Positions 1,778-51,857 are shown, numbered from the stretch's first letter. The stretch: 64,000 bases of DNA from Minisyncoccota bacterium (GCA_041674285.1 JBAYVZ010000005.1:5176-69175), one strand, 5' to 3'. Notes: a model not told the origin generated them from the letters alone. Made by a program: numbers and translations.

Positions 1778-1899
1778 GGTCCCGTTAGAGATGCGTTGTT
1801 GTAAATTTACGGGATAGTGTAAAATAAGAAGAGGAACATATTATTAACAATAATTAACAAGATACGGAAGTCTTTGGACTTCCTATCTCTAACGGGATG
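1778..1899 (+). repeat. A-element copy A1 (about 122 nt; TIR CCCGTTAGAGAT / ATCTCTAACGGG; ends on the ATG of the NYN gene)
   Basis: 5' arm at 1781-1792, subterminal hairpin GGAAGTC-tttg-GACTTCC, 3' arm at 1885-1896, ATG at 1897. Confidence 0.8.
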
Positions 1900-2405: not shown

Positions 2406-3320
2406 ATGGAAAAGCTTTGGCCAATCACATTAACGAGGAAAATATCTGATATACACTGCGGTGGTTTCACCATGGCAGAGGAAGAGAGTCTCGGCTTCAA
2501 AGCAGGTGAATTATTTGAGGCACCGAATGAGCTTTTTGAACTAGTGACATTTCACAAGAAAAATCTTTCAACAAATTTACATAAATACAAAGAGGTAATA
2601 ATAAAAAATAACGATTACACCGAGGTCAGACCTGGGGTTTTTGCTCATGCAGGTGCAGTTATAGATGAGCAAGTGGTCTTTAATACAAAAAATGGCTTGG
2701 TCATAGTAGAAAAAGGGGCGCATATAAATCCATTTAATTATATAGCTGGGCCAGTACGTATAGACGAGAGTGCGACAATTAACCCGCATTCAAATATTTC
2801 AAATTCTTATATAGGTAAATACTGCAAAGTGGGAGGTGAAGTCTCAAATTCTATAATAGAGTCATACAGCAACAAAGGTCATCATGGATACCTGGGTGAT
2901 AGTTATGTAGGCTCATGGGTAAATATCGGTGGGGGCGCGTCAACATCAAATCTTAAAAATACATACGGAAAGATAAAGCTAGGTGGGGTAGAGACCGGGG
3001 AGCAATTCCTAGGATCAGTCATCGCCGACCATGCAAAAATAGCCATAAATGTATCTATATATACAGGAAAAGTAATCGGCGTGGCCGCTCACGTATATGA
3101 CACAGTCACAATAGATGTGCCCTCATTTACAAATTATATTTCAAAAGAAAATATGACTATTTTACCCGTTGATATAGCAGTAAAAATAGCAGGACGAATG
3201 CAAGAACGTCGGGGTATAAATACTATAGAGGAGGACAAAGCTATGCTATCATATGCTTATAATGCCACCGAAGGTGAACGAAAGAGTGCTGGCGTTACAG
3301 AAGGTAAATTAGCATTTTAA
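2406..3320 (+). CDS. Left-handed beta-helix (hexapeptide-repeat) protein; putative sugar nucleotidyl- or acyl-transferase family
   Basis: Repeating [LIV]G-x4 hexapeptides (IGKYCKVGGEVSNSII, VGSWVNIGGGAS, IAINVSIYTGKVIGVAA). Specificity is not determinable. The start may be the internal Met at 2469. Confidence 0.4.
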   Translation: MEKLWPITLTRKISDIHCGGFTMAEEESLGFKAGELFEAPNELFELVTFHKKNLSTNLHKYKEVIIKNNDYTEVRPGVFAHAGAVIDEQVVFNTKNGLVIVEKGAHINPFNYIAGPVRIDESATINPHSNISNSYIGKYCKVGGEVSNSIIESYSNKGHHGYLGDSYVGSWVNIGGGASTSNLKNTYGKIKLGGVETGEQFLGSVIADHAKIAINVSIYTGKVIGVAAHVYDTVTIDVPSFTNYISKENMTILPVDIAVKIAGRMQERRGINTIEEDKAMLSYAYNATEGERKSAGVTEGKLAF

Positions 3321-3340
3321 ACCAAAAAATTGCAAATTTT

Positions 3341-3446
3341 TTCTTCGCATATCTTTTCTAGGGTACACAAATTTTTTGCTAAAAATTTGTGAGAGTCTAG
3401 CGCCGGTCGCGCTGTAGAAGCCCCTAAAAAAGATAAGCGTGCGACA
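3341..3446 (+). repeat. B-element copy B1 (about 105 nt structured repeat)
   Basis: TTCTTCGCATATCTTTTCTAGGG ... hairpin CACAAATTTTT-tgct-AAAAATTTGTG ... GCGCC-ggtc-GCGC ... CCCCTAAAAAAGATAAGCGTGCGACA. Flanked by the imperfect direct repeat TTGCAAATTTT / ATTTGCAATTTTT. Confidence 0.7.
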
Positions 3447-4416: not shown

Positions 4417-4429
4417 ATACTATAAATTC

Positions 4430-4537
4430 GTCGCACGTGTATCTTTTTTAAGGGCTTCTGCAGCGCGACTGGCGCGAAGCCTGAGTAAATTTTTAGCAAA
4501 AAATTTACGTACCTTAAAAAAGATATACGAAGAAAGA
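4430..4537 (-). repeat. B-element copy B2 (opposite orientation to B1/B3) between tdh and kbl
   Basis: The reverse complement aligns to B1/B3 along its length (GTAAATTTTT-agca-AAAAATTTAC hairpin and the GCGCGACTGGCGC hairpin). Flanked by the direct repeat TATAAATT. Confidence 0.7.
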
Positions 4538-4554
4538 ATTTATAAATTATTCAT

Positions 4555-7660: not shown

Positions 7661-7799
7661 CTGCTTTGTTGTCGATTCCGTTTACTCCCGCAATGTAGAT
7701 AACTACATCTTGGTCATAATACTCATCGACGCCTCGCATCTGCATTCGTCCGGCTGATTATATGATTATACATTTAAACCATTTATTTTAAAAATCCTT

Positions 7800-7904
7800 T
7801 CTTCGCATATCTTTTCTAGGGTACGTAAATTTTTTGCTAAAAATTTACTCAGGCTTCGCGCCAGTTGCGCTGTAGAAGCCCCTAAAAAAGATACGCGTGC
7901 GACA
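7800..7904 (+). repeat. B-element copy B3
   Basis: Near-identical to B1. The hairpin co-varies (GTAAATTTTT-tgct-AAAAATTTAC versus CACAAATTTTT/AAAAATTTGTG in B1). Confidence 0.7.
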
Positions 7905-7933
7905 GATTTTGCAAAATGATAAAATATAAAGAA

Positions 7934-8057
7934 GGTCCCGTTAGAAGTCATATATGTCATTCAAGCTACGGAGACTGTTTAAATAAATTATTTATATTCG
8001 ATATTATTAGTTAAATTATGTACGATAATCTAAAGATTATCTACTTCTAACGGGATG
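7934..8057 (+). repeat. A-element copy A2 (TIR variant CCCGTTAGAAGT / ACTTCTAACGGG)
   Basis: Arms at 7937-7948 and 8043-8054 with a compensatory AGT/ACT change; subterminal hairpin GATAATCT-aaa-GATTATC; ATG at 8055. Confidence 0.8.
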
Positions 8058-9080
8058 TTAAAAAACGATATTAAAAAATACGATTCAAAGAATGTACTAG
8101 CTTCAGTCGAGCTTTTTTATGCCCAATGCAAAAAATCATGGGACACGACTATTTATAAAAATGATAAGAATGAGATATCAAATATATTAGTCATAGGTAT
8201 GGGTGGATCCGCACTGGGTGCACAGATAATACAGTCACTAAATATATTGAAGGTGCCTATGCATATATCAAATGAGTACACGATACCAGAATGGGTAAAT
8301 AAAAATACCTTGGTCTTGGCGATGAGCTACTCTGGTAGCACAGAGGAGACAGTCGAGGCACTGAACTATGCATTAACAAAAAAGGCAAACATCGTAGGTA
8401 TAACTACGGGAGGTAAACTAGCAGAAATCTTGAAAAAGAAAAAGCTTCCACTATGCCTGATCGACAAGACGGACAATCCCTGCGGTCAACCAAGATTTGC
8501 AGTGGGGTCTATGATGATGATCATGCTGCGAATTTTTATCCATCACAAATTGTGCAGATTAAATACAAAAGATATAACGGGGGCACTTTCAGAATTGGAA
8601 AATGAAAAGGTGCTAAATGATAAATCTCTAGAAAAAAAATATAATCAGATAAACAAATTAAAAGACAAGATCCTCGTACTAGTATACGCCGAGCATCTAT
8701 CCCATGTCGGACTATTCGCCAGGAATCAGATTCACGAGACATCAAAAACTTTTGCAGTCACACACAATATACCAGAGCTGAATCATCATCTGATGGAGGG
8801 ACTATCATACCCCGCAGTAAATAAAATTATTCTGCATTTTATATTTACAGAATCCACACTCTACAGTGACAAAATACAAAAGAGAATCAGTGTGACAAAA
8901 GAAGTACTAAAAAAACAAAAGATAAAATCAAGTGTAGTAGAGGCGAGAGGGGGCAGTCATCTATCTGAAATATTGATCCAGATACTAGACTCTATGTATT
9001 TTGCTTATCTACTAGGGATAGCAAATAAAAAAGACCCGAGTGACATCCGCTGGGTAGATTATTTTAAGGCACGGATATAA
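8055..9080 (+). CDS. SIS-domain bifunctional phosphoglucose/phosphomannose isomerase-like protein
   Basis: ILVIGMGGSALGAQII and VLAMSYSGSTEET SIS motifs; 341 aa, archaeal/CPR-type PGI/PMI architecture. Confidence 0.55.
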   Translation: MLKNDIKKYDSKNVLASVELFYAQCKKSWDTTIYKNDKNEISNILVIGMGGSALGAQIIQSLNILKVPMHISNEYTIPEWVNKNTLVLAMSYSGSTEETVEALNYALTKKANIVGITTGGKLAEILKKKKLPLCLIDKTDNPCGQPRFAVGSMMMIMLRIFIHHKLCRLNTKDITGALSELENEKVLNDKSLEKKYNQINKLKDKILVLVYAEHLSHVGLFARNQIHETSKTFAVTHNIPELNHHLMEGLSYPAVNKIILHFIFTESTLYSDKIQKRISVTKEVLKKQKIKSSVVEARGGSHLSEILIQILDSMYFAYLLGIANKKDPSDIRWVDYFKARI

Positions 9081-11612: not shown

Positions 11613-11738
11613 ATGGATCCCGTTAGAGATGTGCTTGTCATATTTTTAATTGAGGTGAATTATAAAAATTAAGGTCGTATTTTTAGCATAAACTAATAAG
11701 ATACGGTAATGTAAACATTACCTATCTCTAACGGGATG
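11613..11738 (+). repeat. A-element copy A3
   Basis: ATGGA-TCCCGTTAGAGAT ... GGTAATGT-aaac-ACATTACC-t-ATCTCTAACGGG-ATGGA, with the 5-nt direct repeat ATGGA at both ends. Confidence 0.85.
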
Positions 11739-15594: not shown

Positions 15595-15634
15595 CTCATT
15601 AAAAAATTAAAATAATAATGTTTATTTACAGTTT

Positions 15635-15658
15635 CCCGTAAGTCGATTTTCTAACGGG
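15635..15658 (-). repeat. Degenerate or minimal A-element (arms only: CCCGTTAG ... CTTACGGG)
   Basis: On the minus strand GTCCCGTTAGAAAATCGACTTACGGGA lies 45 nt upstream of the TrmB-like start. Confidence 0.3.
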
Positions 15659-15825
15659 ACAAGTATATTCATTGTATTCCAAGCACTATATTTTGTCAAT
15701 CTATATCAACAATATTATTTAAATCTATAAAACACCCTGTTTTACAAGATTAAAATTAAAGAAATTAGTTCTGTGTGCTTGACAAATATTGCTTGCCTGA
15801 TATTATATATATAAAATTTTAAAAC

Positions 15826-19882: not shown

Positions 19883-22882
19883 ATGTCAGGACACGAATCA
19901 CATGGGCACGAAAAAAAAGTTGTCATCCGAAAACCTATCAAAAAATATGAAAAGGAGGAAAATATAACTGATGAATATATAGAAAACCTGGGGGCAGAAC
20001 TCATAATAATAAGAGACCAGCTGGCAGATCTAGAGGAGAGAATGCACGGGAAACTGAGCTCAAAGGATAAACACGACATAGAACACCTAATACATGAAAA
20101 AACAGAGAGGGAAATACATCTCTTAAATGAACAGGCTCGTGCTTTTATTTATTCCATAAAAGAAGAAGAGGCACTAACAAAAGCAAGAGAGAGGGTAAAT
20201 TTTTTAAAAAAAGACATTCCCCATGAGAAAATCCCAGAACTAAAAAAGAAAAAAGAGAATGAGCTTACTGAACTAGAAGAAAACATAATTACACAAAGCT
20301 TAAAAGCAGAAAAGAACAAGGAAAATATTGAGGATGCAAAAATACAAATTCAATTAAATAGAACTCGATCTGAGTATGCAAAAGAATTCAAAAAGCACAA
20401 TAAAGGAATTAAAACGAGGAAGGCAATAGACTCTGTATCTACTTATTTAAAAAATATCGGAATAAAGACAAAGAACAAATTAAACTCAATAAGACCATCC
20501 TCTTGGGATTGGACACGGGATGATTTTGCAAAGGGGAATAATGGACAAAAAAACCTTTTAAAGAAAAAAGATATTTCAGAGTATGAGACACCTGAGCTAA
20601 AAGCAAAGAGGGGAGCCTATGATGCAGCTCGTCTTGCTTTTGCAGATAGAATGTACGAGAAGAGAAAAAACGAGCTCGCAAGCGCAAGCTCAATAACAGA
20701 AGAAGCAGCAGTGGAAGAACTCAGAGAAAAAGAACTTCACAAAGCAGAAGCAAGTGGTGTGAATATGAGCCTGGACGACATAAAAGAATGGGAAGAAATA
20801 TTTAAGCGTAAAGTAAAATCCGGTGAATACAAAGATGAAATAGAAGAAATAAAAAACAGAGGAAAGATAGATTCTACAGAACAGATAAGGAGATTACAAC
20901 AATTTAAGGCAAAAGAAATACTTCAAAAAACTTTCTTTGATGAAAGAAGGAGGGTATATGAGGAGAGTGGTGTACCAGAGAGGGGTGCAGTTTTGAAATT
21001 GATGCATGGGTATGCGAGCCTGCCAAGATGGAAAAGAATCACACTGTCTACAATACTATTCACTGCTGGTGGAGTAACAGGGGCAATCCCATTCGCCCCT
21101 TTTGCTGGAGCAATGATAGCAAAATACGGCATAATATCTTACGCCGGGATGAGATTTGGTTTAAGTGCTTTTACAGCAGGAGTAGCAACAGAGGGCGCAA
21201 GGGGAGCAGATCGGTGGAATCACAAAAAAGATGAAGAATTTAAAAAAGAACAAGCGAGAAAAAGAAAAGAATCAGAGGATCAATTTGCAAATGGAGAGAT
21301 AAGCAAAGAAACACATGAAAAAAATCTTATTTCCATAGAAATAGATGAAAATGAAGATAGAAAAAAAAGAATGAGAATAAAGGCTGTAGTTGGAACACTA
21401 CTAGGTGTTGGAGCGGGAGCTGGGGCTTATCAATTAATAGGTGGAATGATGACCCCAGAAAATGAACACATAACACCACCAATGACAAAAGGAGAGCACT
21501 TTACTAAAGCGCCTGCACCAGTTCAACTAGAAAAAACCCTCGATGAATTTGCAGTGAAAGCAGACAGGGTAGAGGCAGTACCTACACCCCCAGCACCGAT
21601 TAGTACAGGAGGAGATCCAGTAATGTTAAAATACCCAGATCTAAATATCGACCAGACAGAGTTTAAAAATATGGAAGGGGGGCTAGCTACTACATCAGAT
21701 TTCACTCCACATACTACAGCAGATGAATTCAACCCAGGTAATTCAAATGCAGACCAAACACCTGCAGTAGAAAAACCAAAATACAATTTTGGAGATTATA
21801 ATCCAGATGAAAGGAATCTCAACCAAGAGAATCCTGAATCCGGGGAGAGATTAGAACTACCAAAGACCCCAGCCCCAGAGGGGCAAGAGAACCCTGAATC
21901 TGGAGAAAGGTTAGATATACCAGAGACTCCAGATCCAACTGGCCAAGAGAACCCTGAATCTGGAGAAAGGTTAGATATACCAGAGACTACAGGGGATGCA
22001 ACAGAGCCAAAAATAGAGAGTCCTACATCTACAGAAAATACAAATACTGAATCTGATATAAATAATAGTACTGAAAAGCCTAAACTTAAAATAAATTTTG
22101 AAGAGACTCAGAAGATCCAAGAAAATCAATTGACTGAACTTAAAAATGAACTAGGCGAAAAAGAATACAACAAGATAATTAAAGATCTAGAATCTAAAAA
22201 CATTCCCTACAAATCAGACTCAACGGCATTCCGAACAATTTCAATAGGAGAAAGTACTAATGAAAATTTTGCGAGAACTATTGCTAGAAATTATGCTGGT
22301 TCTCAGGTTCTAGAACAAACAGGTCAAACACAAGCAACAATAGGTAGTAGCCGAATCTTAGATTCACACATGTACAAACTTCCTAACGGGGAATACCGAA
22401 GTGTGATAATATTTGAAACAGAAAAAGTAAACGGGCAAGATGTTGGCGAGCTTTTAAACACAGAAAAAAGCCCAATAACAGAAGTCCCAGAGAGCACTGG
22501 AAATGGGGAAGAAATGAAAATCAACCCTCAGGAGACAAAAGGAAGTATGGAGGCTCCAAACATAGAAAGTGAGACTAACCTTGCCATTGAAAATATAATA
22601 AAGGAAGGGAAATACAAGGATATAGTTAAAAACGTAGAAATGCTTGGTTATAAATTTGAAGGGTCTCGCAGTGCAGATGTTACTGTTCTAAAATTCCTAG
22701 AATCTTACAAGTCTGGTGAATACACATTAGCAATAGACTCAGCAGATGCTCCTACACACAATCTTGCGTCTCAAGCAATTAGCCAGAGACAAGACCTCGT
22801 AAACACAGCAGAAAAAATGAATCTATGGAAAAAAACTGACAGTGGATATCATATGATTTCTATTCGTTTAATCAAAAAATAA
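19883..22882 (+). CDS. Giant (999 aa) coiled-coil membrane protein with tandem 20-aa repeats
   Basis: K/E-rich coiled coil of about 330 aa at the N-terminus, two TM helices (ITLSTILFTAGGVTGAIPF ... ), and QENPESGERL[DE][IL]P[EK]TP repeated three times. Confidence 0.4.
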   Translation: MSGHESHGHEKKVVIRKPIKKYEKEENITDEYIENLGAELIIIRDQLADLEERMHGKLSSKDKHDIEHLIHEKTEREIHLLNEQARAFIYSIKEEEALTKARERVNFLKKDIPHEKIPELKKKKENELTELEENIITQSLKAEKNKENIEDAKIQIQLNRTRSEYAKEFKKHNKGIKTRKAIDSVSTYLKNIGIKTKNKLNSIRPSSWDWTRDDFAKGNNGQKNLLKKKDISEYETPELKAKRGAYDAARLAFADRMYEKRKNELASASSITEEAAVEELREKELHKAEASGVNMSLDDIKEWEEIFKRKVKSGEYKDEIEEIKNRGKIDSTEQIRRLQQFKAKEILQKTFFDERRRVYEESGVPERGAVLKLMHGYASLPRWKRITLSTILFTAGGVTGAIPFAPFAGAMIAKYGIISYAGMRFGLSAFTAGVATEGARGADRWNHKKDEEFKKEQARKRKESEDQFANGEISKETHEKNLISIEIDENEDRKKRMRIKAVVGTLLGVGAGAGAYQLIGGMMTPENEHITPPMTKGEHFTKAPAPVQLEKTLDEFAVKADRVEAVPTPPAPISTGGDPVMLKYPDLNIDQTEFKNMEGGLATTSDFTPHTTADEFNPGNSNADQTPAVEKPKYNFGDYNPDERNLNQENPESGERLELPKTPAPEGQENPESGERLDIPETPDPTGQENPESGERLDIPETTGDATEPKIESPTSTENTNTESDINNSTEKPKLKINFEETQKIQENQLTELKNELGEKEYNKIIKDLESKNIPYKSDSTAFRTISIGESTNENFARTIARNYAGSQVLEQTGQTQATIGSSRILDSHMYKLPNGEYRSVIIFETEKVNGQDVGELLNTEKSPITEVPESTGNGEEMKINPQETKGSMEAPNIESETNLAIENIIKEGKYKDIVKNVEMLGYKFEGSRSADVTVLKFLESYKSGEYTLAIDSADAPTHNLASQAISQRQDLVNTAEKMNLWKKTDSGYHMISIRLIKK
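21823..21990 (+). repeat. Tandem 60-nt in-frame coding repeat (about 2.8 units)
   Basis: Units 2 and 3 are identical over about 50 nt (CCAAGAGAACCCTGAATCTGGAGAAAGGTTAGATATACCAGAGACT). Confidence 0.7.
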
Positions 22883-22902: not shown

Positions 22903-23211
22903 ATGGATACAAAAATAAAAAATGATATAGTTTCTATCCTTGGTATAGATTCACTACCAAAAGAAGAACAGGAGGAAGTGTACATGCAGTTCGGTGCGAT
23001 CATCTATATGGAGGTCATGACTCGTGCTATGGATATACTATCCGAAGATGATCAAAATATCCTGGATAAATTAATCCAAGAGAATCCTGATCCAGAAGTA
23101 ATGTTCACATTTCTAGCAGAAAAAATCCCAAACCTAGATGAGATAGTTCGGGAAGAAGCAGAAAAGGTTCACAAAGAAGCAGGAGATCTGATGAGTAAAG
23201 TAGGTCAATAA
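22903..23211 (+). CDS. Small acidic hypothetical protein
   Basis: 102-aa ORF followed by a terminator. Confidence 0.35.
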   Translation: MDTKIKNDIVSILGIDSLPKEEQEEVYMQFGAIIYMEVMTRAMDILSEDDQNILDKLIQENPDPEVMFTFLAEKIPNLDEIVREEAEKVHKEAGDLMSKVGQ

Positions 23212-23219
23212 TACAAAAG

Positions 23220-23240
23220 AAAAACGCCTTTGGCGTTTTT
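23220..23240 (+). terminator. Rho-independent terminator
   Basis: AAAAACGCC-ttt-GGCGTTTTT. Confidence 0.6.
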
Positions 23241-23264
23241 CTTTTGTTCTGTATAATAGAACCA

Positions 23265-23391
23265 ATGTCTCCCGTTAGAGATTCGCTTGTTATATTTCTA
23301 ATTTGAGGTGATTTGCAAAATGAATGTCGTATTATTTACTATATATTAACAAAGGGCGGTAATGTAAACATTACCTATCTCTAACGGGATG
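23265..23391 (+). repeat. A-element copy A5
   Basis: TCTCCCGTTAGAGAT ... GGTAATGT-aaac-ACATTACC-t-ATCTCTAACGGG-ATG. Extended -10 TGTATAAT at 23249-23256 sits just upstream. Confidence 0.85.
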
Positions 23392-25320
23392 GATTATCTA
23401 AATACACTAAATGAAAAGCAGAAAGAAGCGGTCCTTCAGACAGAGGGGCCGCTTCTGATTGTAGCAGGGGCCGGAGCAGGAAAGACCAAGACTCTAACAC
23501 ATCGAATCGTACATATAGTACATGGTGGAGTGAAGCCAGAGAATATACTAGCAGTTACTTTTACCAATAAAGCCGCAAAAGAGATGAGAGAAAGAGTGAT
23601 AGGACTACTTTCACAGAGGGAAAACGGTGCCCCCGCTGGTGGACATAGTGGTTATCCATTTGTTTCTACATTTCACGCACTCGGAGTAAGAATTATAAAG
23701 GAGAATGCGCACTTACTAGGCCTGACAAAGCACTTTGTCATAGCAGATGACGATGACTGCATGAAGATTATCAAGGAATCTCTCAAGACCCGCGACATAG
23801 ACCCAAAGCAGTATGAGCCGAGAAAGATCAAGAGTATCATTTCTCGAGCAAAGGGGGATTTTATAAACATAGATAAATTCTCAAATGAAGTAAAATCAGG
23901 ATTTGAAAGTGTGGTCGCTACTATCTGGCGTGACTATGAAAGAACTCTTAAATCAGAAAAGGCTCTAGACTTTGATGACCTATTGATCGAGACTGTGATG
24001 ATTTTGAAAAAGTATCCAGAAGTAAAACTACACTATCAAAATCAATGGCAGTATATCCATGTGGATGAATATCAGGATACCAATGAGGTACAGTATGAGA
24101 TGGTAAAGCTACTCGTAGGACCCAGGGAGAATATCTGTGTAGTGGGTGATACAGATCAGAATATCTATAGTTGGCGCGGAGCAAATATAAAGAACATGCT
24201 TCATTTTGAAAAAGATTATCCGAAAACTGTGATTGTGATGCTCGAACAGAATTACCGATCCACAAAGAATATAATCGAGGCAGCAAACAATGTGATAAAT
24301 AAAAATGTATTCCGAGTGCCAAAGACGCTCTTCACAGAAAAGGAGACAGGGGAGGATATCACAATATACGAGGCCTTCGACGAGATATATGAGGGGCAGT
24401 ATGTAGCAAATCAGATCCATGAATTGCTCCGTGAAAATAAACCCGAAGATATAGCTATACTCTATCGTGCGAATTTCCAATCCCGCGTATTAGAGGAAGC
24501 GATGCTTTCAAAAAATATCCCATACCAAGTCCTCGGTACAAAGTTCTTTGACCGAAAAGAAATTAAAGATGTCCTATCTTATCTACGTGCAGCATTGAAT
24601 CGTGATAGTCTGTCAGACATCAAGAGGGTGATCAATACTCCCGCTCGAGGTATCGGAAAAGTGACTCTAGTAAAACTATTCTCCGGAGGAATCAATGACT
24701 TGCCAGCTAGTATGCAGATGAAGATCAGTAACTTCTACAATTTACTAGATGAGATCCATGAATACGCCATGGTGAACAAGCCAAGTGAAATAATAAAATT
24801 CATCATTGAGCGTAGTGGACTAGAAGAAGAACTTAAAAAGGGCACTAGCGATGACCTAGAGAGACTAGAAAACATGAAGGAACTAGTGACACTCGCCATC
24901 CGATACGATGGTTTCGATATCGAGGAGGGTATAGATAAAATACTCGAAGACGCAGCACTATCTAGTGATCAAGACAGCCTGATAAACAAGCCAAAACCAG
25001 GAGGAGTACGCCTGATGACTGTGCACGCATCCAAAGGCCTTGAATTCAAATACGTATTTATCACAGGCCTTGAAAAAGATTTATTCCCGCACTCACGCCC
25101 CGGTGGAGGCAAGAAGGAGGATAGCGAGGAGGAGCGCAGACTATTCTATGTAGCACTGACTCGCGCCGAGAAAAAGCTATATCTATGCTATGCATCACTA
25201 CGAACAATATTCGGTATGAAGCAGGTAAATACCCCTAGTGAATTCCTAGAAGACATACCATCACACCTAGTAGAGTATGATAGGGGTGGCGGAAATGGAG
25301 AAAGGATTGTGTATATTTAA
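23389..25320 (+). CDS. UvrD/PcrA/Rep-family ATP-dependent DNA helicase
   Basis: AGAGAGKTKTL Walker A, VDEYQDTN, and the full set of SF1 motifs. Confidence 0.85.
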   Translation: MDYLNTLNEKQKEAVLQTEGPLLIVAGAGAGKTKTLTHRIVHIVHGGVKPENILAVTFTNKAAKEMRERVIGLLSQRENGAPAGGHSGYPFVSTFHALGVRIIKENAHLLGLTKHFVIADDDDCMKIIKESLKTRDIDPKQYEPRKIKSIISRAKGDFINIDKFSNEVKSGFESVVATIWRDYERTLKSEKALDFDDLLIETVMILKKYPEVKLHYQNQWQYIHVDEYQDTNEVQYEMVKLLVGPRENICVVGDTDQNIYSWRGANIKNMLHFEKDYPKTVIVMLEQNYRSTKNIIEAANNVINKNVFRVPKTLFTEKETGEDITIYEAFDEIYEGQYVANQIHELLRENKPEDIAILYRANFQSRVLEEAMLSKNIPYQVLGTKFFDRKEIKDVLSYLRAALNRDSLSDIKRVINTPARGIGKVTLVKLFSGGINDLPASMQMKISNFYNLLDEIHEYAMVNKPSEIIKFIIERSGLEEELKKGTSDDLERLENMKELVTLAIRYDGFDIEEGIDKILEDAALSSDQDSLINKPKPGGVRLMTVHASKGLEFKYVFITGLEKDLFPHSRPGGGKKEDSEEERRLFYVALTRAEKKLYLCYASLRTIFGMKQVNTPSEFLEDIPSHLVEYDRGGGNGERIVYI

Positions 25321-34697: not shown

Positions 34698-34824
34698 ATG
34701 GATCCCGTTAGAGATGTGTTGTTAATAAAATAAAATATAAGTTAAAATTAAGTATAAAATAATATTACATAATAAAAATTAATAAGATACGGAAATGTAA
34801 ACATTTCCTATCTCTAATGGGATG
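34698..34824 (+). repeat. A-element copy A6
   Basis: ATGGA-TCCCGTTAGAGAT ... GGAAATGT-aaac-ACATTTCC-t-ATCTCTAATGGG-ATGGA. The hairpin co-varies (A/T). Direct repeat ATGGA at both ends. Confidence 0.85.
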
Positions 34825-35979
34825 GACAAAACAGAACTACAAAAACAAATAGCAGAATACTTTTCAAAGCTACCACCAGAAGCTGCTGCTATTTTTAGTA
34901 GCATGGCCTGGATAGATCAGACAGAAGAAATAGGCAATAGGTATAATCTGACAGAGGACCAATTAAAAGCCCTAATAACAGAGACTAGCCTGGCTCTCCT
35001 AGGAGTCATACACTTGAATCAATATGAGGATATATTAATCCAAGAACTCGCTCTCCCTAAAGAAAAGATAGCACCCATGATATCTGAAATAGATAGGGAA
35101 GTATTCGCATCTATCCGCCCAGCCCTAGAAAATACATTTGAATCAAACATAGAGAACATAGCAAAAAACAAATACGGTGGAGCTCAGAATATGGACGACA
35201 GATTCAAAGGGTTGCCACCTGCTGTCCAAGAGGCTATAACAAATTCCAACTACAAAAAGAACCTATACAATATAGCCAGTAAGTACAAATTGAACATGCC
35301 GAGCATGAGCACCCTAGATGAAGTAACCACAAAAGTCATGCTAGGGATAATCCCCAGTGAAAACTACAAAAATGAACTGTCAGCAGGGGTCCAAGCTTCG
35401 CCAGAAAATATAGATCTCATAGTATCAGAAGTCAATGAACAGGTTTTTAAAAACATAAGGTCATTCCTAATTCAAAATACAAAAAGAGATGACGCTGAAA
35501 AAGAAAAAATAGAGATACCGATACCTCCATATAAGAAATCAAATATCCCGACACCCCCATACAAGAAAACAGAGCCATTCGTTCCAGTAAATTTACCAAT
35601 CGCAGAATTTGAAAAAAAAGAGACGGATGATGGCATGAAAATATCGGGGATAGAGATACTAGCAGACGAGAATACAGAAGAAAAAGTAGACGAAGAAAAA
35701 GTTACAATAAAAGAAGACAATATAATGGTAAAATCTGGGGTCTCGGTAGTAGAAGAGGGTAACAATCCCCAGGAATCACACATTATACCGAGCAAGGAAA
35801 CACAAAAATCAGTATTGTACGGTATAGAGAACCCCCAATCAACAAAATCAATACTAAATATGAAGCTCCAGGGAGCAACATCAAGTGGAGTATCCAAAAG
35901 CAATCAACCAATATCAAATATACCTCCACAAAACACAACAAAGTCAGTGATTCATGATCCATATCATGAGCAAATATAA
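34822..35979 (+). CDS. Hypothetical soluble protein with an internal duplication
   Basis: 385 aa; PPYKKSNIPTPPYKKTEP; no TM. Confidence 0.35.
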   Translation: MDKTELQKQIAEYFSKLPPEAAAIFSSMAWIDQTEEIGNRYNLTEDQLKALITETSLALLGVIHLNQYEDILIQELALPKEKIAPMISEIDREVFASIRPALENTFESNIENIAKNKYGGAQNMDDRFKGLPPAVQEAITNSNYKKNLYNIASKYKLNMPSMSTLDEVTTKVMLGIIPSENYKNELSAGVQASPENIDLIVSEVNEQVFKNIRSFLIQNTKRDDAEKEKIEIPIPPYKKSNIPTPPYKKTEPFVPVNLPIAEFEKKETDDGMKISGIEILADENTEEKVDEEKVTIKEDNIMVKSGVSVVEEGNNPQESHIIPSKETQKSVLYGIENPQSTKSILNMKLQGATSSGVSKSNQPISNIPPQNTTKSVIHDPYHEQI

Positions 35980-35994
35980 ACACCAATCATATAC

Positions 35995-36408
35995 ATGCAA
36001 TTCAAAGTCCCACAATTCATAGATATAGAAGATAAATTATTTGGACCTTTTACGTTCAAACAATTCTCATACCTAGCTGGGGGAGCGGGTATTGTATTTT
36101 TAATATACAAAACGATGCCATTATGGATAGGCATATTCCTGATTATCCCCATTGCGGGGTTAGTATTGGCTTTAGTTTTTTACAAGATAAACAATCAGCC
36201 ATTCATATATTATCTCCAGGCAGCGATAACATATGCACTCGGAAATAAACTATATATATGGAAACAGAGAATCCAAGAAAAAAATGAAGAATCAGAAGAA
36301 GAAATAAAACAAACCTCTGTCGTACCTAAAATGTCTCAAAGTAAATTAAAAGATATTGCATGGGGACTCGACATGAAAGAAGAAGATAACTCAAAAAACC
36401 TCTCGTAG
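35995..36408 (+). CDS. Small 2-TM protein, VirB3/PrgI/TcpE-like
   Basis: FKQFSYLAGGAGIVFLIY and IGIFLIIPIAGLVLALVFY. Lies immediately upstream of virB4, as in Gram-positive-type T4SS. Confidence 0.35.
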   Translation: MQFKVPQFIDIEDKLFGPFTFKQFSYLAGGAGIVFLIYKTMPLWIGIFLIIPIAGLVLALVFYKINNQPFIYYLQAAITYALGNKLYIWKQRIQEKNEESEEEIKQTSVVPKMSQSKLKDIAWGLDMKEEDNSKNLS

Positions 36409-36456
36409 TAGAGGTTTTTTTGCACTAAAAATAAAAATTGATGATATAATATAAAA

Positions 36457-37110
36457 ATGGCAATCAATGCAGAAAAATCTCAAGAATTTGTACCAATAAA
36501 AGAAATCCGTGATGGAGTGATCATCCTGAAAGATGGGGGATATCGGGCAATACTGATAGCTTCTTCTATAAACCTATCTCTAAAATCTAGCGATGAGCAG
36601 GTAGCAATAATAAATCAATTCCAAACATTCCTAAATAGTCTGGATTTTTCCGTGGAAATAGTAGTGCAGTCTCGAAGATTAGATATCCGTCCGTATTTAA
36701 TGACACTAGAAGACAGGATGAAGAACCAAGTAGAGCCACTACTTAAGATACAGACCAAGGAATACATAGACTTCATAAGATCTTTTACTGACGAGGTAAA
36801 CATAATGACAAAGTCATTCTTTATCGTAATCCCATACAGCTCCACAATAATAAAACCTACAGAGGGAATATTTGATAAACTAACTGGCAGTAGAGTAGGT
36901 ATGTCTGCTCCTGCAGAGCTTTCCAAAAAAGAAACAGAGATGGCTGAATTCGAAGAGACCAGATCTCAGCTAGATCAGCGTGTGAGCGTAGTAGCATCAG
37001 GACTTTCAGGAATGGGAATTAGAACTTCTCAATTAAAAACAGAGGAAGTAGTAGAATTATTTTATAAAACATTTAATCCTGGCGATATAAGCCAAGGAAT
37101 GAAATTATAA
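36457..37110 (+). CDS. VirB4 N-terminal domain encoded as a separate ORF
   Basis: VPIKEIRDGVIILKDGGYRAILIASSINLSLKSSDEQVAIINQFQTFLNSLDFSVEIVVQSRR follows the CagE/TrbE/VirB4 N-terminal pattern. Ends in TAA two nt before copy A7. Confidence 0.6.
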   Translation: MAINAEKSQEFVPIKEIRDGVIILKDGGYRAILIASSINLSLKSSDEQVAIINQFQTFLNSLDFSVEIVVQSRRLDIRPYLMTLEDRMKNQVEPLLKIQTKEYIDFIRSFTDEVNIMTKSFFIVIPYSSTIIKPTEGIFDKLTGSRVGMSAPAELSKKETEMAEFEETRSQLDQRVSVVASGLSGMGIRTSQLKTEEVVELFYKTFNPGDISQGMKL

Positions 37111-37111
37111 T

Positions 37112-37235
37112 ATGGGTCCCGTTAGAAGCCGCGATCACGATTTATAAATAAAAAATATGAAAAATAATTATCGAAACATTAAAAATATAACTGAGCAAAG
37201 TCGCGAAACGATCGCGATCTGCTTCTAACGGGATG
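37112..37235 (+). repeat. A-element copy A7 (TIR variant CCCGTTAGAAGC / GCTTCTAACGGG) between the two virB4 cistrons
   Basis: ATGGG-TCCCGTTAGAAGC ... TCGCGA-aac-GATCGCGA ... GCTTCTAACGGG-ATGGG. Direct repeat ATGGG at both ends. Confidence 0.85.
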
Positions 37236-45252: not shown

Positions 45253-45393
45253 TTATTTCTTTATAGATACACTAGCGCGACCTTTTTGGCGTCGGCGGGC
45301 AGTGACCTTTCGGCCATTTTTTGTCTTTGTACGTACAAGAAAACCGTGTGTTTTAGCTCTTTTACGTTTGTTTGGTTGATATGTTTGAGACAT
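45253..45393 (-). CDS. rpmH: 50S ribosomal protein L34
   Basis: [46 protein letters not shown], translated by hand; below the ORF-track length cutoff. Confidence 0.85.
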
Positions 45394-45515
45394 AATGTCT
45401 AATATATACTATAATGGTGCATTATGCAACCCATAAAGTTATCCACACGATATACACAGGATTGCACACAATTCAAACAGGACGATTATAAATCTTAACT
45501 AGTATAATAGGAACT

Positions 45516-46868
45516 ATGGTATCAGATACAAAAAAATTATGGGAAAGCTGTTTGGCGGAAATCGAATTATCCATTTCAAAAGCAAATTTTACAACCTGGT
45601 TTAAAAATACACAGATAGTAAAAGAAGAGGAGGGAGTACTATTTATAGGAGTACCAAATGAATTCGTAAAAGACTGGTTGAATAATAAATTTCACAAGCT
45701 AATCCTTAAAACTCTAATGAATTATGAGGATAGTGTACGCAATATAGAATACATAATCACAAAACACGAAGTAGTAAAACCAAAAACAGAAAATGAACAA
45801 GCCCCTATATCTATAAACAAAGAACTGCCACTAGCTGATCTCTATGTAAACAAGGACGACAACTTAAATCCTAAATATACATTCAATAATTTTATTGTTG
45901 GACCATTCAACGAGCTTGCATATGCAGTTTCCCAAGCTATCATCACCACACCAGGGGAAACATATAATCCATTCTTTGTATATGGAGGTACAGGTCTTGG
46001 TAAGACACATATGATCCAATCGATAGGGAATAGTATCAAGAATAAATTTCCAAATAAAAAGATTTATTATGTGAGTCTTGAAAAATTTGCTATTGACTAC
46101 ATAAACTCAATTCAAAACAAAAATCCAAATGGATTTAAAGAGAAGTATAGAAAATACGATGTGATAATTATGGATGACATCCAATTCATATCAGGAAAAG
46201 AAAAGACTCAAGAAGAATTATTCCATTTGTTCAATATATTCCACGAAAACAATAAGCAAATTGTTTTTTCTTCAGATAAACATCCAAACTTTATCCAAGG
46301 ATTAGAAGAACGTCTACAATCTAGATTCGCTTCTGGTATGACAGTACAGATAACAGAGCCTGACTATGAATCACGCGTAGCGATCATCAAAGCTAAGCTA
46401 CAGAAGACAAATATAATAGTGGATGAACCAGTCATCTCCTACCTTGCAGAGGTACTAGAGGGTAATATACGAGAATTGGAGGGTAGTTTAAATACAATCA
46501 TCTGCCAATCTCAACTCAAAGATAAATCACTCTCTTTAAATGAGACAAAAAATTTAATTAAAAATAATATCCGACCAAAGAAAAATGTAGCTATCAAAGA
46601 TATTATTAAAATAATTGCTGATTATTACAATATCCCCGAAGCTCACGTATATGAGAAGACCAGGAGAAAGGAGATAGTCCAAGCTCGCCAAGTAGCGATG
46701 TACCTACTCCGAGAAGATTTCAATATTTCATACCCACTAATAGGTCAAAAGTTTGGGGGTAGGGATCACACCACAGTCATACACTCACACCTCAAAATAA
46801 AAGAAGATTTAAAGACGAATCCAAGCCTACTCCAAGAGATAGAGAGGATCAGAATCATGTTCAAATAG
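45516..46868 (+). CDS. dnaA: Chromosomal replication initiator DnaA
   Basis: GGTGLGKTHM AAA+ motifs and a C-terminal DNA-binding helix-turn-helix. Confidence 0.92.
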   Translation: MVSDTKKLWESCLAEIELSISKANFTTWFKNTQIVKEEEGVLFIGVPNEFVKDWLNNKFHKLILKTLMNYEDSVRNIEYIITKHEVVKPKTENEQAPISINKELPLADLYVNKDDNLNPKYTFNNFIVGPFNELAYAVSQAIITTPGETYNPFFVYGGTGLGKTHMIQSIGNSIKNKFPNKKIYYVSLEKFAIDYINSIQNKNPNGFKEKYRKYDVIIMDDIQFISGKEKTQEELFHLFNIFHENNKQIVFSSDKHPNFIQGLEERLQSRFASGMTVQITEPDYESRVAIIKAKLQKTNIIVDEPVISYLAEVLEGNIRELEGSLNTIICQSQLKDKSLSLNETKNLIKNNIRPKKNVAIKDIIKIIADYYNIPEAHVYEKTRRKEIVQARQVAMYLLREDFNISYPLIGQKFGGRDHTTVIHSHLKIKEDLKTNPSLLQEIERIRIMFK

Positions 46869-47092
46869 CTGTGGATAAAACTGTTAATAACTAGGGGGCT
46901 AGAATTTAACAAGATGTTCACAAAAACATAAACAAAACTAATCCACAGCAAAGTATACAGATGACATGTTTTATAAGAATTTTAAAAAAGAGATAAAAAG
47001 CTTACTTTATATAGTCGAAAAAAGTAATCCACATATCCACAGGAATAGTATTAGTAATAGAGTTTATTTAATAATTAATTAAGAAAGAATAT
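46869..47092. promoter_or_regulatory. oriC: DnaA-box cluster between dnaA and dnaN
   Basis: TGTGGATAA (46869-46877, perfect), TAATCCACA (46939-46947), TAATCCACA (47025-47033) and ATATCCACA (47034-47042), with an AT-rich stretch. One more perfect TTATCCACA lies at 45439-45447, upstream of dnaA. Confidence 0.6.
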
Positions 47093-51044: not shown

Positions 51045-51599
51045 TTGTGGGATAATTTAATTATGAGAAAAAAATCATCAACCCCGTCCTCTGATTACAG
51101 AGTCCACCCCTCAAGAGGGGAATTAAATATGAATACAAAAAATACATCCACCCCACCTTTTGATTACAAAAGGCACCCCTCAAGAGGGGAATTTTGGGAT
51201 ACAGGTTCTTTGTATCCATATTGGGAAATTCCTAAAAATAAACTTTTAATCTCACGAGCAAAAGAATTAAGAAAAGCTGGCAATTTAGCGGAAGTTATTT
51301 TTTGGAAAACTTTCAATGATAAAAATAAAATAGGTTTTGATATTGATCGGCAAGTTATAGTAGGGAACTATATTGTCGATTTTTTTATCCCGGAATTGGG
51401 TTTAGTTTTTGAAATAGACGGATCGAGTCACGATAATAAAATAGATTATGATGCCGAACGGGATGCATTTATGAATGACCTTGGATTGTTTGTTATTCGA
51501 ATTCCTGATGTAGATGTGAAGAAAAATATGGAAAGTGTCTATAATTTTGTAACTAATATAATTTTAGAAAGAACAAATAAACTCAAGGGTTTTTCTTAG
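51045..51599 (+). CDS. DUF559 (Vsr-like endonuclease fold) protein. The ORF-track 5' extension consists of C-repeat units, and the true start is uncertain.
   Basis: C-terminal ...VDFFIPELGLVFEIDGSSHD...DAERDAFMNDLGLFVIRI matches DUF559. Confidence 0.5.
   Translation: MWDNLIMRKKSSTPSSDYRVHPSRGELNMNTKNTSTPPFDYKRHPSRGEFWDTGSLYPYWEIPKNKLLISRAKELRKAGNLAEVIFWKTFNDKNKIGFDIDRQVIVGNYIVDFFIPELGLVFEIDGSSHDNKIDYDAERDAFMNDLGLFVIRIPDVDVKKNMESVYNFVTNIILERTNKLKGFS
51079..51192 (+). repeat. C-repeat locus 2: two direct units
   Basis: Units at 51079-51123 and 51147-51192 read in-frame as ...DY[RK][VR]HPSRGE[LF]. Confidence 0.65.
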
Positions 51600-51718: not shown

Positions 51719-51780
51719 ATTGGTTCATAACTCCAATCAAAATACCCACGACATATGTCTGAAAACATTAATTTTTTAAA

Positions 51781-51827: not shown

Positions 51828-51857
51828 GTATTGAATTTGGTGTGGTAAAGTATAAAT

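What the first reader, a model, noticed from the sequence alone, without database searches (positions are those of the whole stretch)
23216..23391. Copy A5 begins at a predicted transcription start: terminator, then TGTATAAT, then the element, then ATG (uvrD-like helicase)
After the terminator at 23220-23240 there is an extended -10 (TGTATAAT, 23249-23256). The 5' arm starts about 9 nt later, so the entire 5' UTR of the helicase gene would be the element. That fits a 5'-UTR RNA structure rather than a DNA-only repeat.

In contrast, the interior of several copies contains TTGTTR ... TAAAAT / TAATAAGAT strings that could act as internal outward-facing promoters, as in Correia-type MITEs. The interior is AT-rich and variable, so I cannot tell these from chance matches.
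Basis: inference. Interest (0 to 1): 0.5.

Follow-up and report, generated by a model that had tools for sequence, protein, structure and literature searches.

The report
Mobile hairpin element inserted at start codons
The sequence in front of this helicase gene is one copy of a small hairpin-forming mobile DNA element, apparently undescribed, that sits at start codons in many Patescibacteria genomes; a near-identical strain lacks this copy, so it is an insertion and not a dedicated regulatory leader.

Summary
The layout is real: terminator hairpin (23213-23247), TATAAT (23252-23257), 120-nt element (23270-23389), uvrD ATG (23389). That is this genome's usual leaderless spacing.

This ATG(TC) is the 5' copy of a flanking direct repeat of about 5 nt. 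A relative with 99% identical UvrD has the same terminator and promoter joined directly to the ATG, with no element. So A5 is an insertion into a leaderless start.

The family has 8 copies in the window and at least 119 hits, nearly all in Patescibacteria MAGs. Its features:
- 13-bp arms and a second 6-8-bp helix, both with strong covariation
- ATGNN duplications, and diverse downstream genes
- patchy distribution
- orthologous copies far more conserved than synonymous sites

Element length favours multiples of 3. An upstream reading frame from the 5' ATG is open to a UAA 4 nt before the real AUG far more often than chance. This suggests translational coupling, as proposed for mycobacterial MIRUs.

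A5's own upstream frame stops after 13 codons, so how uvrD is translated here is unresolved. Internal promoters are not supported. Verdict: a new variant of a known kind (MITE-like).

The parts
22903..23211 (+). Upstream gene (102 aa, weak DUF5663 hit); its TAA stop is at 23209-23211.
   Evidence: ORF list; Pfam label on the identical gene in L200; synteny kept in relatives.
23213..23247 (+). Intrinsic-terminator-like hairpin: 16 bp, UUU loop, A-tract and U-tract flanks.
   Evidence: Fold -21 kcal/mol, z = -7.78; conserved in L209 and L205.
23252..23257 (+). -10 box TATAAT of the uvrD promoter (with -35-like TTGGCG at 23230-23235). It ends 7 nt before the ATG at 23265, the leaderless spacing.
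   Evidence: The identical box lies 7 nt before the uvrD ATG in the empty alleles L209 and L205. 15 of 44 other window genes have such a box 5-9 nt before the start, against 3.4% of random positions.
23265..23269 (+). 5' copy (ATGTC) of the flanking direct repeat. This is the original start codon and the predicted 5' end of the mRNA. The 3' copy is ATGGA at 23389-23393.
   Evidence: The family-wide repeat spans exactly 5 columns. 81 of 127 flank pairs are identical, against 21.9 in shuffles. In A5 only ATG still matches.
23265..23306 (+). Upstream reading frame MSPVRDSLVIFLI*, from the 5' ATG into the element, with its TGA stop at 23304-23306. It is in frame with the UAA of the 3' arm but closed early by this single stop.
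23270..23282 (+). 5' arm of helix P1 (TCCCGTTAGAGAT); at DNA level, the terminal inverted repeat.
23283..23357 (+). Variable AT-rich interior, with no conserved structure or promoter.
23358..23375 (+). Helix P2 hairpin GGTAATG-TAAA-CATTACC, separated from the 3' arm only by T23376.
   Evidence: P2 of at least 6 bp in 115 of 127 copies; 7 of 8 pairs show changes on both sides.
23377..23389 (+). 3' arm of P1 (ATCTCTAACGGGA). It contains UAA at 23382-23384, 4 nt before the uvrD AUG. The last A is the A of that AUG.
23389..25320 (+). uvrD/pcrA-type helicase gene (643 aa).
   Evidence: Pfam UvrD-helicase 1.8e-87 and UvrD_C 3.8e-69; named 'UvrD-helicase domain-containing protein, Candidatus Paceibacterota' by NCBI.
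1780..1897 (+). Copy A1, directly after the rpsO terminator and in front of a NYN-domain gene (1897-2400). Its flanks are TTTGG and ATGAT, so there is no 5' ATG.
7936..8055 (+). Copy A2 (arms with GAAGT/ACTTC), in front of a SIS/PGI-like gene (8055-9080).
11618..11736 (+). Copy A3, between pnp (ends 11607) and a 293-aa gene; flanks ATGGA and ATGGA.
   Evidence: The empty orthologous site in L203 reads TAAaaatATGGAC.
34703..34822 (+). Copy A6, between a 1025-aa gene (ends 34690) and a 385-aa gene; flanks ATGGA and ATGGA.
   Evidence: empty orthologous sites in L203 and L205.
37117..37233 (+). Copy A9 (long-stem type, CGCGATC helix). Flanks are ATGGG and ATGGG. The 5' ATG lies 1 nt after the stop of gene 36457-37110. 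Downstream is a TraG/VirB4-like ATPase gene.
43583..43700 (-). Copy A8 (arms TCCCGTATGAAAT, changed on both sides), between yidC and jag/khpB; flanks ATGGA and ATGGA.
44807..44924 (-). Copy A7, between rnpA and yidD. The rnpA stop codon is the TAG inside the 5' arm. The 5' flank is ACTTG.
15630..15659 (-). Remnant of about 30 nt (TCCCGTTAGAAAA..CTTACGGGA on the minus strand), lying 35 nt upstream of the TrmB-like gene start at 15594. An arm-like motif at the syntenic position in L209 (2417, between the TrmB-like gene and the 140-aa gene) suggests it is shared.

Best explanation
A5 is one copy of a roughly 120-nt, non-autonomous, hairpin-forming mobile element (MITE-like) that has spread in Patescibacteria.

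Shown:
- The element sits immediately after a start codon and duplicates about 5 bp (ATGNN).
- The original start, with its own expression context, therefore stays on the 5' side. A regenerated start abuts the 3' arm.
- At uvrD that context is a TATAAT box 7 nt upstream, the leaderless arrangement.

Inferred:
- The mRNA starts at or next to A23265 and carries the element as its leader.
- In the RNA the 13-bp helix P1 would stack on the 7-bp helix P2 and bury the true uvrD AUG.
- Ribosomes that load on the 5'-terminal AUG, probably while the 3' arm is still untranscribed, translate MxPVR... into the element. This holds P1 open.
- In many family members they terminate at the conserved UAA 4 nt before the real AUG and re-initiate there.
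- The insertion is therefore tolerated, and the gene stays under its original start signals. P1 and P2 are kept by selection because downstream genes, many of them housekeeping genes, depend on them, and possibly also for transposition.

In A5 the upstream frame now ends after 13 codons. Hand-over to the uvrD AUG would then need unmasking of the AUG or re-initiation over a longer distance.
For: Insertion:
- The flanking repeat spans exactly 5 columns, with identity 0.78-0.80 against 0.13-0.42 outside.
- 81 of 127 flank pairs are identical 5-mers, against 21.9 (maximum 35) in shuffles. Rare ones match too (ATGCG, ACTGA, ATTGA, ATACA).
- L209 (UvrD 99% identical, uvrD DNA 96.6% identical) has the same terminator and TGTATAAT but no element. 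L205 (87%) is the same.
- The A3 and A6 sites are empty in relatives, and the pnp junction shows a clean ATGGA duplication.
- None of 70 more distant orthologues has the element.
- Only 1 element occurs in 488 kb of relatives' DNA, against 8 in this 64 kb.
- Elements 83-89% alike stand before unrelated genes. Downstream proteins are almost all unrelated.

Leaderless context:
- -10-like boxes peak 6-9 nt before the 5' ATG copy, in 29 of 83 copies, against 21% of ordinary gene starts and 2.6% of random positions.
- In the window, 15 of 44 other genes have such a box and 1 of 44 has an SD-like motif.

Pairing under selection:
- 98.8% of cells are paired. The covariation score is 0.331 against 0.130 in shuffles (0 of 500 reach it) and at most 0.086 when slid.
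- P2 is present in 115 of 127 copies, with 35 distinct stem sequences among the 72 local hairpins.
- The sense strand is the more stable in 77 of 109 copies, p = 4e-6.

Constraint:
- Orthologous copies are 0.93 and 0.87 identical where 4-fold degenerate sites are 0.49 and 0.51.

Translation through the element:
- Length mod 3 is biased (28/9/9 and 41/24/16).
- In-frame copies are open to the UAA in 17 of 20 (4.3 expected, p = 3e-9) and 10 of 26 (1.9 expected, p = 7e-6).

Precedent: MIRUs.
Against: - No transposase or autonomous partner was found: none in the window and no widely spaced arm pairs in 119 loci.
- None of the eight window copies has an open full-length upstream frame. Three lack a 5' ATG altogether (A1, A2, A7). 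Coupling through a complete upstream frame therefore cannot explain expression in this genome.
- Copies are not independent samples, since they share ancestry, so the p-values are optimistic.
- P1's sequence conservation was partly imposed by the search pattern.
- The sense/antisense stability difference could partly reflect base composition.
- No transcript or ribosome data exist for any copy.
Confidence: 0.6

Rival explanations
1. The element is a dedicated cis-regulatory leader RNA (a riboswitch or protein-binding leader) that controls a set of genes. The flanking repeats would be part of the functional RNA.
For: Conserved two-helix architecture with covariation. Strong orientation bias, 109 of 127. 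Sense-strand folding advantage. Purifying selection on whole orthologous copies. Conserved unpaired 'AC' before P2 and 'U' between the helices.
Against: Downstream genes are functionally unrelated: 112 proteins, nearly all singletons, including topA, pheT, glyA, tpiA, ftsW, uvrD, pgi and yidD. The interior is variable, with no conserved core. A near-identical strain expresses uvrD from the same promoter without the element. The distribution is patchy and lineage-specific. Inverted copies exist. There is no Rfam family match.
Confidence: 0.08
2. The element is purely selfish DNA. The arms are transposase-binding inverted repeats, the RNA fold has no role, and downstream genes are expressed by unrelated means.
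For: Terminal inverted repeats, target duplications and filled/empty polymorphism. Arm sequence, not only pairing, is conserved. The window copies have broken upstream frames.
Against: Changes on both sides keep pairing in P1 positions 7, 8, 11 and 12, and throughout P2. P2 lies on one side only and varies in sequence. The 109-to-about-9 orientation bias, the 3n length bias and the excess of open frames are strand- and frame-specific. Orthologous copies are far more conserved than silent sites.
Confidence: 0.15
3. The element works like a Correia element and carries an outward-facing internal promoter that drives the downstream gene.
For: A1 lies directly after a terminator with no room for a promoter. 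91 of 127 copies contain at least one -10-like hexamer in the interior.
Against: The hexamers show no positional peak and are equally common on the antisense strand, as expected for AT-rich DNA. The invariant 3' end (CCTAYYTCTAACGGG-ATG) has only TAYYTC at the leaderless -10 position, and it lacks the final T. GC-rich copies have few such hexamers.
Confidence: 0.07
4. The stacked P1+P2 helix of about 20 bp is a processing site, for example for RNase III. It would separate the element from the coding part and leave a short-leader or leaderless mRNA.
For: The combined helix length is nearly constant: 13 + 6-8 bp in 115 of 127 copies, either as a nicked stack or as one long stem. RNase III is reported as retained in Patescibacteria (PMC12641178). 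Own knowledge: Correia element transcripts are reported to be RNase III substrates.
Against: Cleavage would make reading frame and open upstream frames irrelevant, yet both are selected. No cleavage site would leave an exact 5' AUG. This is untestable here.
Confidence: 0.1

Closest known systems
Mycobacterial interspersed repetitive units (MIRUs; Supply et al. 1997, as summarised in review PMC12548453)
   Same: Short repeats that appear mobile and insert at start codons. [quoted passage not shown] Both occur in lineages rich in leaderless or SD-poor genes (own knowledge for mycobacteria).
   Different: MIRU coupling uses a -4 overlap (ATGA); here the stop lies 4 nt upstream (UAA-CGGG-AUG). MIRUs are 46-101-bp direct, often tandem, units (own knowledge) without long terminal inverted repeats. 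These elements are single palindromic units with 13-bp arms, a second helix and 5-bp duplications, and they occur in a different phylum.
Bacterial MITEs such as Correia/CREE, ERIC and RUP (review PMC3184786)
   Same: Under 200 bp, with terminal inverted repeats, target-site duplications and no transposase gene. They fold into long RNA stem-loops, lie near gene 5' ends and are co-transcribed.
   Different: Correia and ERIC-type elements are flanked by TA (for Correia from own knowledge; one search states it only for ERIC-type elements). Correia elements also carry promoters and an IHF site. Here the duplication is ATGNN at start codons, no promoter is evident, there are frame and open-reading-frame constraints, and no parent IS is known.
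Neisseria REP2 and Borrelia IR upstream repeats (PMC3184786)
   Same: Repeats located immediately upstream of genes that include the ATG start codon.
   Different: Those repeats supply a promoter, a ribosome-binding site and the ATG. This element supplies neither a promoter nor an SD. It keeps the host's own start context on its 5' side.
Leader-peptide translational attenuation or coupling by RNA unfolding (erm-type leaders; RNA-unfolding model in PMC12548453)
   Same: Translation of a short upstream frame would open a helix that sequesters the downstream start codon (for the model).
   Different: Those leaders are gene-specific and often drug-sensing. This one is a mobile cassette in front of unrelated genes, and no stalling signal has been identified.

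Membership tests
MITE (non-autonomous inverted-repeat element; criteria from PMC3184786) | Small size (generally under 200 bp) and no transposase gene inside | tested here: met
   111-133 nt, with shorter (67-83 nt) and longer (192-280 nt) variants. The interior encodes at most a peptide of about 38 aa.
MITE (non-autonomous inverted-repeat element; criteria from PMC3184786) | Terminal inverted repeats | tested here: met
   13-nt arms, 99.6% paired in 56 copies; 13 arm matches in the window against 1.2 expected.
MITE (non-autonomous inverted-repeat element; criteria from PMC3184786) | Flanking target-site duplication | tested here: met
   Direct repeat of exactly 5 nt. 81 of 127 pairs are identical against 21.9 in shuffles, with a few 4-nt and 6-nt cases. 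The empty site TAAaaatATGGAC compares with the filled site ...ATGGA[el]ATGGAC.
MITE (non-autonomous inverted-repeat element; criteria from PMC3184786) | Evidence of mobility: presence/absence at orthologous sites, and similar copies at unrelated sites | tested here: met
   A5 is absent in L209 (99% UvrD) with identical flanks. A3 and A6 are absent in L203 and L205. Copies 83-89% alike stand before unrelated genes.
MITE (non-autonomous inverted-repeat element; criteria from PMC3184786) | A transposase acting in trans, or an autonomous IS with the same ends | tested here: inconclusive
   No transposase domain in about 52 window ORFs. No arm pairs more than 300 nt apart in 119 loci. Whole genomes could not be searched.
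Correia element (CREE) | TA target duplication, 26-bp Neisseria-type inverted repeats, functional internal promoters | tested here: not met
   The duplication is ATGNN. The arms are TCCCGTTAGARRT. There is no positional promoter signal.
MIRU-type start-codon repeat | Located at start codons or intergenic junctions within operons | tested here: met
   109 of 127 copies end at an ATG. 46 of 83 lie within 45 nt after an upstream ORF.
MIRU-type start-codon repeat | Internal ORF in phase, with its stop overlapping the downstream start (-4 spacing) | tested here: not met
   The ORF ends at a UAA 4 nt upstream of the ATG and does not overlap it. It is open in only 27 of 46 in-frame copies and in none of the window copies. 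The element resembles a MIRU in logic but is not a member.
MIRU-type start-codon repeat | Direct, often tandem, units of about 46-101 bp in mycobacteria (own knowledge) | tested here: not met
   Single palindromic unit per site; the hosts are Patescibacteria.
Riboswitch or curated cis-regulatory RNA family | Match to a described family | tested here: not met
   No Rfam 15 match at gathering score in the window. Only noise around A5, on the terminator.
Riboswitch or curated cis-regulatory RNA family | Conserved unpaired core, and association with functionally related genes | tested here: not met
   The interior is variable and a third helix is not above shuffles (5.64 against 5.57). Downstream genes are unrelated.
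Integron attC site | 5'-RYYYAAC ... GTTRRRY-3' core order, located at the 3' end of promoterless cassettes | tested here: not met
   Read directly from the sequence, the order is reversed (5'-..GTTAGAG ... CTCTAAC..-3'). The elements sit at gene starts among housekeeping genes 4-11 kb apart.
REP/REPIN | GTAG-type 5' tetranucleotide, RAYT transposase, no target duplication (own knowledge) | tested here: not met
   The arms begin TCCCG. A duplication of about 5 bp is present. No Y1-transposase domain occurs in the window.

The most novel reading that the evidence does not exclude
The helix exists to place the two identical AUGNN copies side by side at its base. Ribosomes loaded on the 5'-terminal AUG of a leaderless mRNA would be passed across the closed stem to the second AUG. 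This would be a bacterial counterpart of ribosome shunting or translational bypassing, carried by a mobile element. Alternatively, a Patescibacteria-specific factor recognises the conserved P1 duplex and removes the element from the RNA. Either would explain how copies with broken upstream frames, or with none (all eight in this window), still allow expression of housekeeping genes. It would also explain why about 80% identity per position is kept between the two 5-nt repeats, although the time since the insertions is not known.
Probability: 0.1. Interest if true: 0.85.

Novelty: new variant of a known kind. Interest (0 to 1): 0.65.

Why it matters
Patescibacteria have tiny, dense genomes and largely unknown gene-expression rules. 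This family shows three things.

- Many of their genes are laid out for leaderless translation, with a -10 box 6-8 nt before the ATG and no SD.
- A mobile element has specialised in the one place where an insertion into such a genome can be survived, the start codon. It appears to pay for this with built-in features: a duplicated AUG, an open frame ending 4 nt before the real AUG, and a start-masking helix.
- The host then has to conserve the element.

The family therefore offers a natural experiment on leaderless initiation, re-initiation and RNA unfolding in an uncultivated phylum. It may be a useful marker of strain-level variation. It also warns annotators that these conserved '5' UTR structures' are not riboswitches.

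I found no description of it in Rfam or in the searchable literature.

Tried and rejected
- **Rfam.** Nothing at gathering score. The low-score hits around A5 all fall on the terminator hairpin.
- **tRNA or tmRNA mimicry.** No hits.
- **Third conserved helix.** I tested pairing between the TTGTTR region after the 5' arm and YAACAA before P2. It looks convincing in A1, A5 and A6 but is not above shuffles family-wide (5.64 against 5.57).
- **Internal promoter.** No positional signal.
- **G-U against A-C mismatches in the arms.** 8 against 3 in gene-facing copies is too few to decide between RNA and DNA. The whole-element sense/antisense comparison was used instead.
- **Autonomous element.** Unpaired or distant arms turned out to be short, long or degenerate copies, not transposons. 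Pfam on all window ORFs found no transposase.
- **Functional enrichment of downstream genes.** None.
- **attC, REP/REPIN, retron and self-cleaving ribozyme readings.** Rejected on anatomy and on the empty Rfam result.
- **Peptide-coding mini-gene.** A GC-rich subfamily keeps AATCGGATAGGGTTCGG (peptide NRIGFG). Coding and RNA constraint could not be separated.
- **Literature.** Searches for the arm sequence, for Patescibacteria with MITE, leaderless or RNA motif, and for start-codon MITEs found no description of this element.
- **More strain polymorphisms.** Looked for at A1, A3, A8 and A9; the contigs that reach those sites carry the filled state (the A6 site lay just beyond the only independent contig).

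Full report
**Observation**

The region reads, in order:
- TAA stop of a 102-aa gene at 23209-23211
- a perfect 16-bp hairpin with a U-tract at 23213-23247 (-21 kcal/mol, z = -7.8)
- TATAAT at 23252-23257, with a -35-like TTGGCG 16 nt upstream
- seven bases
- ATGTC at 23265-23269
- the 5' arm TCCCGTTAGAGAT at 23270-23282
- a 75-nt AT-rich interior
- the hairpin GGTAATG-TAAA-CATTACC at 23358-23375, then T
- the 3' arm ATCTCTAACGGGA at 23377-23389, whose last A begins the uvrD ATG

The TG is not in the extended -10 register. The arm starts 12 nt after the hexamer, not 9. The ATG at 23265 was overlooked. The promoter scan on its own is not above chance (3 sites against 4.9 expected).

**The family**

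The arm motif occurs 13 times in the window against 1.2 expected. A two-arm pattern finds 7 copies against 0 expected. An eighth copy lies at 37117-37233, and a 30-nt remnant at 15630-15659. In all eight full copies the last A of the 3' arm is the A of a start codon. The genes behind them are:
- a NYN-domain protein
- a SIS/PGI-like enzyme
- two proteins with no Pfam match
- UvrD
- a TraG/VirB4-like ATPase
- Jag/KhpB
- YidD

Almost all are Patescibacteria MAGs: Paceibacterota/Parcubacteria, Kaiser-, Wolfe-, Nomura-, Taylor-, Lipton- and Lloydbacteria, Kazan, and automatically labelled 'Saccharibacteria'. Flanking G+C in these loci ranges from about 0.28 to 0.62. Rfam has no matching family, and I found no paper describing the element.

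**Anatomy**

All copies share helix P1 (13 bp). 115 of 127 also have a 6-8-bp helix P2 whose 3' strand is separated from the 3' arm by a single T. The 5' strand of P2 is placed in one of two ways:
- local, forming a hairpin stacked on P1 (72 copies, including most of those in the window)
- 3 nt after the 5' arm, forming one long interrupted stem (38 copies, mostly GC-richer genomes)

On 56 copies, 98.8% of cells pair. 11 of 21 pairs show changes on both sides. The covariation score is 0.331, against 0.130 in shuffles (0 of 500 reach it) and at most 0.086 when the partners are slid. P1 positions 11 and 12 switch between G-C and A-U with only 2-4 exceptions in 127 copies.

Two caveats apply. The invariant P1 columns were partly imposed by my search pattern. 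The 56 copies were also chosen for having a local P2.

The interior is not conserved, and a candidate third helix is no better than shuffles. The sense strand folds better than the antisense strand in 77 of 109 gene-facing copies (p = 4e-6) and has more G-U pairs, 389 against 255.

**It is an insertion**

The 5 nt before the 5' arm repeat the 5 nt that start at the terminal A of the 3' arm. Identity is 0.78-0.80 in exactly five columns and 0.13-0.42 outside them. 81 of 127 flank pairs are identical, against 21.9 (maximum 35) after shuffling. These include rare ones (ATGCG, ATGGG, ACTGA, ATTGA, ATACA), and a few repeats are 4 or 6 nt long. The consensus is ATGRA.

Orthologous sites settle the matter:
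- **A5, closest relative.** L209 (GCA_018061145.1) has UvrD 99% identical and uvrD DNA 96.6% identical. It reads ...terminator...cTGTATAATagaacgcATGGAGGATTATCTAAAT. The window reads ...the same terminator...cTGTATAATagaaccaATGTC[120 nt]ATGGATTATCTAAAT.
- **A5, other relatives.** L205 (87%) has the same terminator and promoter followed by ATGAATGATTAC. Relatives at 89-97% and 70 more distant orthologues also lack the element.
- **A3.** At the pnp junction the empty site TAAaaatATGGAC in L203 compares with TAAaaactATGGA[A3]ATGGAC in the window.
- **A6.** The site is empty in L203 and L205.

In 488 kb around UvrD genes of related organisms there is one element, against eight in this 64 kb. Elements 83-89% alike precede unrelated genes in different genomes. 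About nine copies are inverted relative to the gene. No transposase was found.

**The context is leaderless**

In the window, 15 of 44 genes without an element have a TATAAT-like box ending 5-9 nt before the start codon, against 3.4% of random positions. Only 1 of 44 has an SD-like motif. The closest uvrD orthologues show TGCTACAAT + 7 nt + ATG. Across the family, -10-like boxes peak sharply 6-9 nt before the 5' ATG copy: 29 of 83 copies, against 21% of ordinary gene starts and 2.6% of random positions. Another 34 copies (46 of 83 in all) lie within 45 nt after an upstream ORF.

The element therefore splits a pre-existing start from its gene.

**Constraint and a likely mechanism**

Orthologous copies are much better conserved than silent sites:

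| Gene | Loci | Protein identity | 4-fold site identity | Element identity |
|---|---|---|---|---|
| glyA | L092/L113 | 0.81 | 0.49 | 0.93 |
| ftsW-like | L034/L091 | 0.78 | 0.51 | 0.87 |

The reading frame from the 5' ATG gives M-x-P-V-R-(N/D/S/G). Element length favours multiples of three: 28/9/9 in GC-rich copies and 41/24/16 in AT-rich copies. That length places the UAA of the 3' arm (UAA-CGGG-AUG) in frame with the 5' ATG. In-frame copies are open right through to that UAA in 17 of 20 (4.3 expected) and 10 of 26 (1.9 expected). In 10 copies an upstream gene ends at the TAG inside the 5' arm; window rnpA is one of them.

These frame-specific signals argue that ribosomes starting at the retained 5' AUG translate into or through the element. 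They would open P1 and re-initiate at the real AUG. This is the logic proposed for MIRUs, which 'insert themselves at start codons' with a coupled internal ORF (PMC12548453). P1 would then tie the gene to its original start signals.

This step is inferred, not shown. It is also incomplete. None of the eight window copies has an open full-length frame, and A1, A2 and A7 lack a 5' ATG. A5's frame has one stop (MSPVRDSLVIFLI*, TGA at 23304-23306), as do the frames of A2 and A9.

**Rivals**

- A dedicated regulatory leader is contradicted by the unrelated gene set, the variable interior, the patchy distribution and the element-free near-identical allele.
- A purely DNA-level repeat is contradicted by one-sided P2 covariation and by the orientation, frame and open-frame biases.
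- Internal promoters have no positional signal.
- RNase III-type processing of the roughly 20-bp P1+P2 stack cannot be tested here and does not explain the frame constraints.
- A shunt, bypass or excision mechanism remains possible and would be the most novel outcome.

**Unexplained**

- The recurrent 5' flank ACTTG.
- The extra codon after ATG in both closest empty alleles. L209's ATGGAGGATTAT equals ATGGA|ATGGATTAT minus AT, which may be an excision footprint.
- The means of mobility.

**Verdict**

The 'RNA leader' reading is only half the story. This is a MITE-like element inserted at start codons, apparently undescribed, with MIRU-like coupling features. It is a new variant of a known kind.

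Noticed in passing
window, all gene starts (e.g. 26786, 31613, 36457, 39104, 44459-, 45516, 53097, 58396-): Most genes have a TATAAT-like box ending 6-8 nt before the start codon and no Shine-Dalgarno motif (15 of 44 against 3.4% at random; SD-like motif in 1 of 44). The genome appears to rely largely on leaderless mRNAs.
   Followed up: partly
window 44487-44512, 44543-44599, 51068-51124, 51137-51193, 51778-51832: A second, unrelated repeat family: a GC-rich hairpin unit containing CACCCCTCAAGAGGGGAAT next to GGGGTGGA...TTGTACTCAAA. It lies between yidD and yidC and on both sides of ORF 51045-51599.
   Followed up: no
window 3313-3446, 4424-4549 (inverted), 7784-7909: A third repeat of about 126 nt (82-94% identity) containing the palindrome GTAAATTTTTnGCnAAAAATTTAC. 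It lies in front of an epimerase gene and an aminotransferase gene and just upstream of element copy A2. It may be a shared operator or promoter region.
   Followed up: no
window 43116-48193: The classic origin-proximal gene order rpmH-rnpA-yidD-yidC-jag on the minus strand, facing dnaA-dnaN on the plus strand. The replication origin is probably near 45.4 kb. Two element copies (A7, A8) sit inside this conserved operon.
   Followed up: partly
window 44916-44924 (minus strand): The rnpA reading frame runs into element A7 and ends at the TAG inside the 5' arm (...GLYLSR*). In 10 of 127 family members an upstream ORF ends at this arm TAG.
   Followed up: yes
window 44925-44929 and 15660-15664 (minus strand); L033, L092, L113, L094, L012: The pentamer ACTTG recurs directly 5' of the element in unrelated loci, without a matching 3' repeat. 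This is unexplained.
   Followed up: partly
L209:9986-10015 and L205:5920-5955, compared with window 23250-23400: Both element-free uvrD alleles closest to the window carry one extra codon right after ATG (MEDY and MNDY, against MDY elsewhere). L209 also differs in the 2 nt before ATG, although the 60 nt upstream are identical. This may be an excision footprint.
   Followed up: partly
L014, L029, L034, L053, L068, L091, L098, L111 (element interiors): A GC-rich subfamily keeps the interior motif AATCGGATAGGGTTCGG. Its full-length upstream frames read MNPVRNRGR...NRIGFGR...ASASYF*. Whether this reflects a peptide or an RNA motif is undecided.
   Followed up: partly
window 21824-22003: Three 60-nt tandem coding repeats inside the 999-aa ORF 19883-22882, which has no Pfam match. 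The relative L209 aligns poorly over the 2 kb upstream of the uvrD promoter, which covers this ORF (1485 of 1745 aligned positions identical).
   Followed up: no
window 34822-43078: A type IV secretion-like cluster: PrgI-family protein at 35995, TraC-like at 36457, TraG/VirB4-like ATPase at 37233, and a T4SS-pilin/VanY fusion at 40092. Element copies A6 and A9 lie in front of two of its genes.
   Followed up: no
L006:7173-7239, L020:159-238, L078:1665-1745, L148:3062-3144, L052:4422-4504; L037:858-1049, L077:1335-1614: Short (67-83 nt) and long (192-280 nt) variants of the element exist, so much of the interior is dispensable or expandable. In L052 the 5' ATG copy keeps the ATGA overlap with the stop of the upstream PBP gene.
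   Followed up: partly
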